Source of the DNA: a virus
Taxonomy: Duplodnaviria; Heunggongvirae; Uroviricota; Caudoviricetes
Length of the DNA stretch: 4,900 nucleotides
IMG/VR virus record: IMGVR_UViG_2671180846_000008
Direction: 5' to 3' (one strand)
A model generated the notes under the pieces. That model made no database searches, had not been told where the DNA came from, and worked only from the letters and a program-made list of their open reading frames with translations. Numbering within the stretch: position 1 is the stretch's first letter; each line of letters opens with the position of its first letter. Positions 4,143 to 4,198 of the stretch are shown one piece after another. The position numbers were made by a program, and so were the translations under genes.

Positions 4143-4198
4143 CCTCGCACTCGCGGGGATTTCTTTTATCTGAACTCGCTACGGCGGGTTTTGTTTTA
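4143..4198 (+). terminator. Two tandem terminator-like hairpins, each followed by a U-tract: CCTCGC-ACTC-GCGGGG + ATTTCTTTT (4143-4167) and CTCGC-TACG-GCGGG + TTTTGTTTT (4176-4198)
   Basis: Hand-folded inverted repeats with 5-6 bp GC-rich stems (one G-U wobble each) directly followed by T-rich runs. In the 118-nt intergenic region between the 80-aa ORF and the 114-aa ORF. Confidence 0.4.

What the first reader, a model, noticed from the sequence alone, without database searches (positions are those of the whole stretch)
4143..4198. Tandem near-duplicate hairpin/U-tract elements in the leader of the 114-aa ORF
The two elements CCTCGC-ACTC-GCGGGG-ATTTCTTTT and CTCGC-TACG-GCGGG-TTTTGTTTT share the same stem sequence (CUCGC / GCGGG) and the same overall architecture only about 30 nt apart. 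This looks like a duplicated terminator, or alternatively a regulatory RNA element or protein-binding repeat. Double terminators just upstream of a start codon are unusual inside a polycistronic phage operon.
Basis: seen in the sequence. Interest (0 to 1): 0.45.

Follow-up and report, generated by a model that had tools for sequence, protein, structure and literature searches.

The report
Known tandem terminators of lambdoid phages
The two look-alike hairpins are real, but they are the well-known pair of transcription stop signals (tL4 and its neighbour) that phage lambda and thousands of related prophages carry between their accessory early genes and the excision/integration genes, so the finding is ordinary.

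Summary
There are two + strand hairpins, each followed by a T tract (stems 4140-4161 and 4172-4191; -12.5 and -10.5 kcal/mol). They lie 13 nt upstream of the ORF114 start. The window is the pL (early-left) operon of a lambdoid prophage: gam-bet-exo ... Ea22-DUF551-DUF4222-[hairpins]-ORF114-xis-int. The same pair is present, almost base for base, in phage lambda (between ea8.5 and orf55), HK022 and 434. GenBank records X51962 and M60848 annotate hairpin 1 as terminator tL4. Bloch et al. 2014 (PMC4195576) predicted both hairpins as rho-independent terminators t3-lambda and t4-lambda. The 75-nt cassette occurs in 2503 of 5426 complete E. coli genomes. It is an island of conservation between many unrelated upstream and downstream genes. 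Hairpin 1 is replaced in some phages by at least six other stems that abut the same T tract, and the one common polymorphism in hairpin 2 swaps U-G for U-A. The most likely function is a pair of tandem intrinsic terminators that are read through by antiterminated polymerase and that also mark a mosaic module boundary. The "duplication" and "unusual" claims are not supported, and several terminators inside this operon are normal. Already known; low interest.

The parts
4088..4138 (+). Non-coding remnant of the 3' end of an ASCH-domain gene (last about 17 codons, ...DKPVKVFAIKVNIGNE, stop TAA at 4136-4138). It is fused after the DUF4222 stop codon at 4090-4092.
   Evidence: It matches the 3' end of a full-length annotated ASCH gene in E. 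coli strain 122. The same stretch is in HK022.
4140..4169 (+). Terminator hairpin 1, equal to tL4 (t3-lambda of Bloch et al.). The 9-bp stem AAUCCUCGC/GCGGGGAUU and loop ACUC occupy 4140-4161. The U-rich tail UCUUUUAU occupies 4162-4169.
   Evidence: -12.5 kcal/mol. It differs by 1 base in 29 from the 'tL4 terminator' feature of HK022 record X51962. It is homologous to 't-L4' of 434 record M60848. It was predicted as t3-lambda in PMC4195576.
4172..4199 (+). Terminator hairpin 2 (t4-lambda of Bloch et al.). The 8-bp stem GAACUCGC/GCGGGUUU and UACG tetraloop occupy 4172-4191. The T tract TTTTGTTTT occupies 4189-4197.
   Evidence: -10.5 kcal/mol. It is identical to the lambda sequence. It was predicted as t4-lambda in PMC4195576. 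The common G/A polymorphism keeps the pair (U-G or U-A).
4134..4205 (+). Conserved intergenic cassette: TAA - hairpin 1 - T tract - hairpin 2 - T tract - ATGGAG. It forms an island of conservation between variable genes.
   Evidence: Column identity is 0.78-1.00 inside the cassette against about 0.3 outside it in 106 unique IMG/VR loci. There are about 30 upstream and about 15 downstream contexts and 46 combinations. It is present in 2503 of 5426 E. coli genomes.
4200..4203 (+). Shine-Dalgarno GGAG of ORF114. This is also the junction where ORF55 (present in lambda, 434 and HK022) is missing.
   Evidence: The GGAG-to-start spacer is 7 nt in 129 of 149 loci.
4211..4555 (+). ORF114, the same gene as ORF114 of phages 434 and HK022. 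Its function is unknown.
   Evidence: It matches phrog_1229 at E = 1e-51 and has no Pfam match.
4561..4579 (+). Hairpin just after the ORF114 stop codon, with a weak T tract.
   Evidence: -8.4 kcal/mol.
4614..4633 (+). t'I terminator (GCCGCATCAATGCGGC followed by TTTT) just upstream of pI and xis.
   Evidence: The homologous feature is annotated t'-I in M60848 and as a terminator (PMID 6305007) in OL657226.
4635..4648 (+). TTGC-N6-TTGC CII box of the pI promoter.
   Evidence: Read directly from the sequence. The same site is annotated in the 434 genome OL657226.
4661..4879 (+). xis (excisionase). The int gene starts at 4856 (MGRRRSHERRDLPP...).
   Evidence: Pfam Exc at E = 4e-41.
1855..1877 (+). 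Another terminator inside the operon. It is identical to t1-lambda of Bloch et al., in the exo/orf60a region.
2527..2545 (+). Another terminator inside the operon. It differs from t2-lambda of Bloch et al. by 1 base.

Best explanation
The two elements are tandem intrinsic (Rho-independent) transcription terminators on the pL (early-left) transcript of a lambdoid prophage. Hairpin 1 is the terminator named tL4 in the HK022 and 434 sequence records. Hairpin 2 is its conserved neighbour, t4-lambda of Bloch et al. 2014. The proposed mechanism is inferred from the anatomy and from established lambda biology. An unmodified RNA polymerase pauses on the U tract, the GC-rich hairpin forms in the exit channel, and the transcript is released. 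Two sites in series multiply the block. Such polymerases come from pL before N acts, or from any promoter inside the accessory exo-xis genes. Polymerase modified at nutL by N (or by put RNA in HK022) reads through both hairpins and through t'I, and so expresses ORF114, xis and int. The pair therefore makes expression of the downstream excision/integration block depend on antitermination, or on CII-activated pI. Secondary role, shown here descriptively: because this roughly 70-nt non-coding cassette is shared by phages whose flanking genes are unrelated, it is also a mosaic module boundary. In this window ORF55 has been lost at the TTTTAT|GGAG junction, and an ASCH-domain gene has been deleted just upstream.
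For: Anatomy: there are GC-rich stems of 9 and 8 bp with 4-nt loops, followed by U-rich tails. They form only on the transcribed strand. Context: the gene order is gam, bet, exo, TraR-like zinc finger, Ea22, DUF551, DUF4222, then ORF114, t'I, the CII box, xis and int. Identity with known elements: the same pair is in lambda, HK022 and 434; hairpin 1 is annotated tL4 in X51962 and M60848; both hairpins were predicted as terminators t3/t4-lambda by ARNold in PMC4195576. Structural constraint: hairpin 1 is replaced by at least 6 other stems, all ending at the same T tract, with energies from -6.8 to -14.8 kcal/mol. These include the 434 type ATCCTCG/CGAGGAT, AACCCGC/GCGGGTT, ATCCCCGC/GCGGGGAT, AACCTCG/CGAGGTT and GCCCGC/GCGGGT. 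In total 91.7% of cells pair, against 36-54% when the partners are slid. The one common hairpin 2 polymorphism is U-G/U-A (54 against 51 loci). Apart from that site, hairpin 2 diversity is about 0.005, against 0.065 at ORF55 third codon positions. Other terminators in the same operon are identical to lambda's. The Casjens group makes the same functional suggestion for intra-operon terminators of P22-like phages (PMC8022706).
Against: I could not reach any direct measurement of termination at these sites (3' end mapping or in vitro assay). The tL4 label comes from GenBank annotations and prediction software. Formal covariation is modest: 3 pairs with changes on both sides, and 37 of 500 shuffles reach that count. 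One hairpin 1 replacement class has no stable stem (-1.1 kcal/mol). In some phages hairpin 2 lacks its T tract (L125). So neither site is indispensable. High conservation could partly reflect recent horizontal spread rather than selection. nutL and N lie outside the window, so antitermination is inferred, not observed.
Confidence: 0.78

Rival explanations
1. The cassette is conserved mainly as a recombination linker. On this view it is a short shared non-coding sequence at which lambdoid phages exchange accessory-gene modules by homologous or microhomology-mediated recombination, and termination is incidental. This is not exclusive of the main explanation.
For: There is a sharp conservation island at 4134-4205 with unrelated flanks. 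There are about 30 upstream and 15 downstream contexts and 46 combinations in 120 loci. BLAST segments break at about 4132-35, 4170-74, 4186 and 4203-04. Module junctions always fall right after a terminator T tract and before an SD (ORF55 and ORF114 in lambda, 434, HK022 and the window). There are deletion scars at AAAGGTGAATA/GAATA microhomologies.
Against: It does not explain why unrelated stems are substituted at the hairpin 1 position while the hairpin and T-tract architecture is kept. It also does not explain why the hairpin 2 polymorphism preserves pairing. Boundaries at gene ends are expected for any intergenic element.
Confidence: 0.3
2. The hairpins act mainly at the RNA level after transcription. 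They could serve as 3' stabilisers of upstream messages, or as the Hfq-binding terminator module of a small RNA derived from the 3' end of the upstream gene.
For: Terminator hairpins with U tails are the usual 3' modules of Hfq-binding sRNAs (general knowledge). The cassette is multicopy, with up to 6 copies per genome. EHEC prophages are known to encode many Hfq-bound sRNAs (PMC13502914).
Against: There is no Rfam family and no promoter-like site upstream. The only multicopy prophage sRNA I checked, HnrS, lies in late genes and is restricted to EHEC/EPEC, so it is a different element. Upstream sequences vary freely, which leaves no conserved seed region.
Confidence: 0.07
3. The pair is a regulated attenuator (leader) for ORF114. 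Alternative pairing of the repeated CUCGC/GCGGG arms, or translation of a short upstream ORF, would decide between termination and read-through.
For: Because the arms are identical, the 3' arm of hairpin 1 can pair with the 5' arm of hairpin 2 (-6.8 kcal/mol). In some relatives an 11-codon ORF ends 2 nt before hairpin 1.
Against: The alternative pairing is far weaker than the two hairpins together (about -23 kcal/mol). The short ORF is the truncated N-terminus of an ASCH-domain gene, and it is absent from the window and from lambda. The downstream gene varies across at least 13 contexts, so the element is not a leader specific to ORF114.
Confidence: 0.03
4. The elements are a repeated protein-binding site (CTCGC-N4-GCGGG) on DNA, or a chance similarity.
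For: The arm sequences are shared by the two elements.
Against: The stem of hairpin 1 is freely replaced by other sequences. Folding is strand-asymmetric, with G-U pairs. The T tracts are conserved. The element is found in thousands of genomes, which excludes chance.
Confidence: 0.02

Closest known systems
tL4 terminator of lambdoid phages (annotated in HK022 X51962 and 434 M60848), together with the predicted t3-lambda/t4-lambda pair of Bloch et al. 2014 (PMC4195576)
   Same: Same sequence: hairpin 1 differs by 1 base in 29 from HK022 tL4, and hairpin 2 is identical to lambda. Same strand. Same position in the pL operon, downstream of the accessory ea-type genes and upstream of xis-int.
   Different: In lambda, 434 and HK022 hairpin 2 is followed by ORF55. 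Here ORF55 is missing and ORF114 follows directly. Upstream lies a DUF4222 gene plus an ASCH-gene remnant instead of ea8.5. The database records name only hairpin 1.
Clustered or tandem intrinsic terminators in antiterminated lambda operons (the tL2a-d cluster, tL3, t'I, tandem late-operon terminators). Cited from general knowledge of the lambda literature (Luk and Szybalski, 1982-83).
   Same: There are several hairpin and U-tract sites inside one N-antiterminated operon. The window also carries the tL3-type (1855-1877) and t'I (4614-4633) sites.
   Different: Termination at the tL4 pair has not, to my knowledge from the material reachable here, been measured as it was for tL3, tR1 and tI.
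Module-boundary (linker) sequences and moron-style gene-plus-terminator units of mosaic lambdoid genomes. The concept comes from Susskind and Botstein, Baker and Campbell 1991, Juhala 2000 and Clark 2001, and is cited from general knowledge.
   Same: It is a short conserved non-coding sequence flanked by interchangeable genes. Each small gene (ORF55, ORF114) carries its own SD at the 5' end and a hairpin plus T tract at the 3' end.
   Different: No promoter accompanies the units. They are therefore not complete morons but operon-embedded cassettes.

Membership tests
Intrinsic (Rho-independent) terminator | GC-rich stem-loop with a short loop | tested here: met
   The stems are 9 bp and 8 bp with 4-nt loops, at -12.5 and -10.5 kcal/mol.
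Intrinsic (Rho-independent) terminator | U-rich tract immediately 3' of the stem | tested here: met
   The tails are UCUUUUAU after hairpin 1 and UUUUGUUUU at and after hairpin 2. The T tracts are at least 90% conserved in columns not covered by the search anchor.
Intrinsic (Rho-independent) terminator | Orientation matches the direction of transcription, and the structure is strand-specific | tested here: met
   The + strand is the coding strand from gam to int. The fold z-score is -3.4 on + and -1.3 on -.
Intrinsic (Rho-independent) terminator | Hairpin maintained in relatives through compensatory change | tested here: inconclusive
   At least six alternative stems sit at the hairpin 1 position, and hairpin 2 shows U-G/U-A variation. 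However, the formal count gives only 3 pairs with changes on both sides, and 37 of 500 shuffles are as high.
Intrinsic (Rho-independent) terminator | RNA 3' ends or transcript release at the U tract | not testable with these tools
   No reachable dataset. The EHEC Sakai Term-seq data are only in GEO, and no supplement is held.
Lambda-family tL4 | Sequence homology to the annotated tL4 feature | tested here: met
   Window 4140-4168 differs from HK022 feature 2417-2445 by 1 mismatch in 29. The 434 version is homologous with a changed stem.
Lambda-family tL4 | Position in the pL operon between accessory early genes and (orf55/ORF114)-xis-int | tested here: met
Lambda-family tL4 | Read through by N- or put-modified polymerase | not testable with these tools
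   nutL and N lie outside the window. This is inferred from lambda biology.
Transcription attenuator / regulated leader | Competing antiterminator structure of comparable stability, or a leader peptide | tested here: not met
   The alternative pairing is -6.8 kcal/mol against about -23 for the two hairpins. The short ORF in relatives is a gene remnant.
Curated small RNA / cis-regulatory RNA family (Rfam) | Match to a covariance model | tested here: not met
   There were 0 matches at E <= 1 over the whole window.
Tandem duplication of one terminator | Similarity between the units above that of unrelated terminators | tested here: inconclusive
   Unit 1 against unit 2 scores 18. Unit 1 against the tL3-type terminator scores 17. 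20 of 5000 mononucleotide shuffles reach 18.

The most novel reading that the evidence does not exclude
Transcripts that stop at hairpin 1 or hairpin 2 might be more than waste. They could yield a multicopy, Hfq-binding RNA derived from the 3' end of the variable upstream gene. A related possibility is that the conserved U-rich tract plus GGAG after hairpin 2 works as a portable translation-initiation enhancer for whichever gene is recombined in behind it. Nothing here excludes either idea, and nothing positive supports them.
Probability: 0.07. Interest if true: 0.45.

Novelty: already known. Interest (0 to 1): 0.1.

Why it matters
It matters little as a discovery. The element is the tL4 region of phage lambda, already annotated in sequence records from 1989-91 and predicted as two terminators in a 2014 paper. 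The useful outcomes are practical. The cassette (4134-4205) is a reliable landmark for the end of the accessory exo-xis block in lambdoid prophages, including Stx phages. It marks where genes are swapped in and out. The tandem terminators plus t'I are the likely insulation that keeps xis/int silent unless antitermination or CII acts. A direct termination measurement still seems to be missing from the accessible literature.

Tried and rejected
Rfam search of the whole window at E <= 1 found nothing.

Literature searches for 'tL4' with lambda or HK022 found no relevant paper in the held library. A search for the exact sequence strings gave only an unrelated primer hit. The Casjens and Hendrix review could not be fetched.

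The lambda reference record J02459 has no terminator features in this region.

I looked for the cassette in the E. coli K-12 cryptic prophages Rac and DLP12, hoping to link it to K-12 3'-end datasets. It is absent with up to 6 substitutions allowed.

I considered that the element might be the 66-nt multicopy prophage sRNA HnrS. I rejected this because HnrS lies in late genes and is almost confined to EHEC/EPEC.

I considered a leader peptide/attenuator because an 11-codon ORF ends next to hairpin 1 in some phages. I rejected this because that ORF is the truncated start of an ASCH-domain gene.

I considered an attenuator based on 2:3 alternative pairing. I rejected it on energy grounds.

The genome-contig scan with a 16-mer was swamped by chance matches, and by lambda-identical low-coverage contigs that look like contamination. 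It gave little information on taxonomic range beyond Escherichia and Pseudocitrobacter.

The supplements of the EHEC Term-seq paper are not held.

Full report
What the window is. The + strand carries, in order:
- gam (30-326), bet/RecT (332-1117) and exo/YqaJ (1114-1791)
- a TraR-like zinc-finger ORF (2605-2826) and an Ea22-like ORF (2823-3428)
- a DUF551 ORF (3425-3775) and a DUF4222 ORF (3850-4092)
- the two hairpins
- a 114-aa ORF (4211-4555), xis (4661-4879) and the start of int (4856)

This is the early-left (pL) operon of a lambdoid prophage, read in the direction of transcription. The closest complete genomes are STEC strains of serogroups O26, O103 and O111 (99.6% identity).

Check of the observation. 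The two elements are at the stated coordinates (4143-4167 and 4175-4197). Each has a 4-nt loop and is followed by a T-rich tail. Both are found by the terminator scan. The region folds into exactly these hairpins on the + strand (z = -3.4, none of 200 shuffles as stable). The complementary strand folds poorly (z = -1.3), as expected from the G-U pairs. The hairpin energies are -12.5 and -10.5 kcal/mol.

The 'near-duplicate' claim is the weak part. The two 5-nt arms are identical. However, an alignment of the two units scores 18, while unit 1 scores 17 against the unrelated terminator at 1855-1877. A duplication therefore cannot be demonstrated.

What it is. BLAST against phage genomes shows the same pair in phage lambda itself, between ea8.5 and orf55/lambdap35. 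It is also in HK022, 434, many Stx phages and P22-like Salmonella phages. The HK022 record X51962 annotates hairpin 1 as 'tL4 terminator', and the 434 record M60848 annotates it as terminator 't-L4'. Bloch et al. 2014 (PMC4195576, Table 4) ran ARNold on the lambda exo-xis region. They list both hairpins as predicted rho-independent terminators t3-lambda and t4-lambda. They also list t1, t2 and t5, which correspond to window 1855-1877, window 2527-2545 and t'I. Downstream, the window has the t'I hairpin (4614-4633) and the TTGC-N6-TTGC CII box of pI (4635-4648), as annotated in the 434 genome. The window has six terminator-like sites on the + strand.

Conservation and structure. The 75-nt cassette matches 2503 of 5426 complete E. 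coli genomes, with up to six copies per genome. I collected loci from IMG/VR with three different anchors. In 106 unique loci, the stretch 4134-4205 is an island of 78-100% column identity. Upstream of it identity is near random, and downstream there are a few alternative sequences. There are about 30 upstream and about 15 downstream sequence contexts, and 46 combinations in 120 loci.

Hairpin 1 is replaced in some phages by at least six other stems:
- ATCCTCG/CGAGGAT in 434
- AACCCGC/GCGGGTT
- ATCCCCGC/GCGGGGAT
- AACCTCG/CGAGGTT
- GCCCGC/GCGGGT
- CCGC/GCGG

All of these end at the same T tract, with energies between -6.8 and -14.8 kcal/mol. One rare class has no stable stem.

Hairpin 2 has one common polymorphism, GCGGG or GCGAG (51 against 54 loci). 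It changes a U-G pair to U-A. Variants that break the stem are singletons. Apart from that one site, diversity in hairpin 2 is about 0.005, against 0.065 at third codon positions of the adjacent ORF55. The search anchors bias part of that comparison.

The formal pair count is modest. 91.7% of cells pair, against 36-54% for slid partners, but only three pairs change on both sides. I rate covariation as suggestive rather than proven. The stronger argument is the substitution of whole hairpins at a fixed T tract.

The two hairpins are separable. Some phages have only hairpin 1 (L126). Twelve loci have only hairpin 2. Some have hairpin 2 without its T tract (L125).

Mosaic boundary. Homology breaks fall just before hairpin 1, at the stop codon region of the upstream gene, and just after the GGAG that follows hairpin 2. 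In lambda, 434 and HK022, hairpin 2 precedes ORF55. In 434 and HK022, ORF114 follows ORF55 and is preceded by another hairpin plus T tract and the same SD (ATTGGAGACAAGAAATG). In the window ORF55 is absent, and the hairpin 2 T tract is joined directly to the ORF114 SD.

Upstream, window 4088-4138 is the untranslated remnant of the last roughly 17 codons of an ASCH-domain gene. That gene's stop codon (TAA at 4136-4138) lies one base before hairpin 1. In other phages only the first 10-11 codons of that gene remain. This explains an apparent 'leader ORF' and removes the attenuator idea. Each small gene in this region therefore behaves as a unit of SD, ORF and terminator, and the joints lie right after a T tract.

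Mechanism. The best-supported reading is that both hairpins are intrinsic terminators acting in series on polymerases that are not antitermination-modified. N-modified polymerase (put-modified in HK022) reads through them and through t'I to express ORF114, xis and int. What is shown here is the anatomy, the strand specificity, the identity with annotated or predicted terminators of lambda-family phages, and the maintenance of the hairpin and T-tract architecture. What is inferred is actual termination, its efficiency, and read-through by N, because nutL and N lie outside the window. Authors of the phage L genome paper offer the same explanation for intra-operon terminators and note that their roles are not established (PMC8022706). 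The cassette's role as a recombination joint is compatible with this, and the mosaic data support it descriptively.

Rivals:
- Regulated attenuator. The alternative pairing is weak (-6.8 against about -23 kcal/mol), the downstream gene is not fixed, and the short ORF is a remnant.
- Known RNA family or sRNA. There is no Rfam hit and no promoter-like site. HnrS, a multicopy prophage sRNA, is a different element. A 3'-end-derived Hfq-binding RNA cannot be excluded.
- DNA protein-binding repeat. The free replacement of the stem sequence and the strand asymmetry contradict this.

Verdict. The element is already known as the tL4 region of lambdoid phages, so interest is low. The one real gap is that no direct termination measurement for this pair was found in the accessible literature. 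Public EHEC Term-seq data could close that gap.

Noticed in passing
window 2038-2141: A run of 50 N (2065-2114) is flanked on both sides by the same 27-mer, AGAAACAGACGAAGAATTTCATACGTT. It looks like a scaffolding gap with overlapping contig ends rather than biology, and it interrupts the ORF that starts at 1946.
   Followed up: no
window 4088-4138: The stretch between the DUF4222 stop codon and hairpin 1 is the untranslated 3' remnant of an ASCH-domain gene (...DKPVKVFAIKVNIGNE*). That gene is full length in other prophages, for example E. coli strain 122 (L344 423-707). HK022 carries the same remnant.
   Followed up: yes
IMG/VR loci, e.g. L125 660-720: In many phages only the first 10-11 codons (V/M-ANLQLAVKGE) of the same ASCH-domain gene remain, fused to hairpin 1 at AAAGGTGAATA|AC. 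This points to repeated microhomology-mediated deletions and mimics a leader peptide.
   Followed up: yes
window 4197-4211, compared with L001 300-345, L002 340-370 and L003 1250-1280: ORF55 (lambdap35; proposed by others to resemble the T7 Gp2 RNAP inhibitor, PMC8614690) is missing from this prophage. The joint lies at TTTTAT|GGAGA, between the hairpin 2 T tract and the ORF114 ribosome-binding site.
   Followed up: partly
window 4561-4579: There is an additional hairpin (GCCTCA-CACTCAA-TGAGGC, -8.4 kcal/mol) right after the ORF114 stop codon, with a poor T tract. It is conserved in 434 and HK022 and its function is unknown.
   Followed up: no
L236, L241, L250, L251, L255, L279, L293 (genome contigs): A lambda-identical cassette plus ORF55 sequence occurs in short, low-coverage contigs of non-enteric assemblies (Shewanella canadensis, Algoriphagus pacificus, Pseudoxanthomonas spp., Chromatium weissei, Pseudomonas sp.). 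These most likely reflect lambda DNA contamination of those assemblies.
   Followed up: no
L004 452-1228 (phage 434, OL657226): In phage 434 the sequence upstream of tL4 carries genes on the opposite strand (putative membrane proteins). The hairpin 1 stem there is a perfect palindrome (ATCCTCG/CGAGGAT). It might act on both strands in that phage.
   Followed up: no
L266 (Pseudocitrobacter faecalis), around position 1495 on the - strand: This is a diverged copy of the cassette outside Escherichia and Salmonella. Hairpin 1 has the stem AACCTCG/CGGGGTT and hairpin 2 has a TATG loop. It keeps both hairpins and both T tracts.
   Followed up: no
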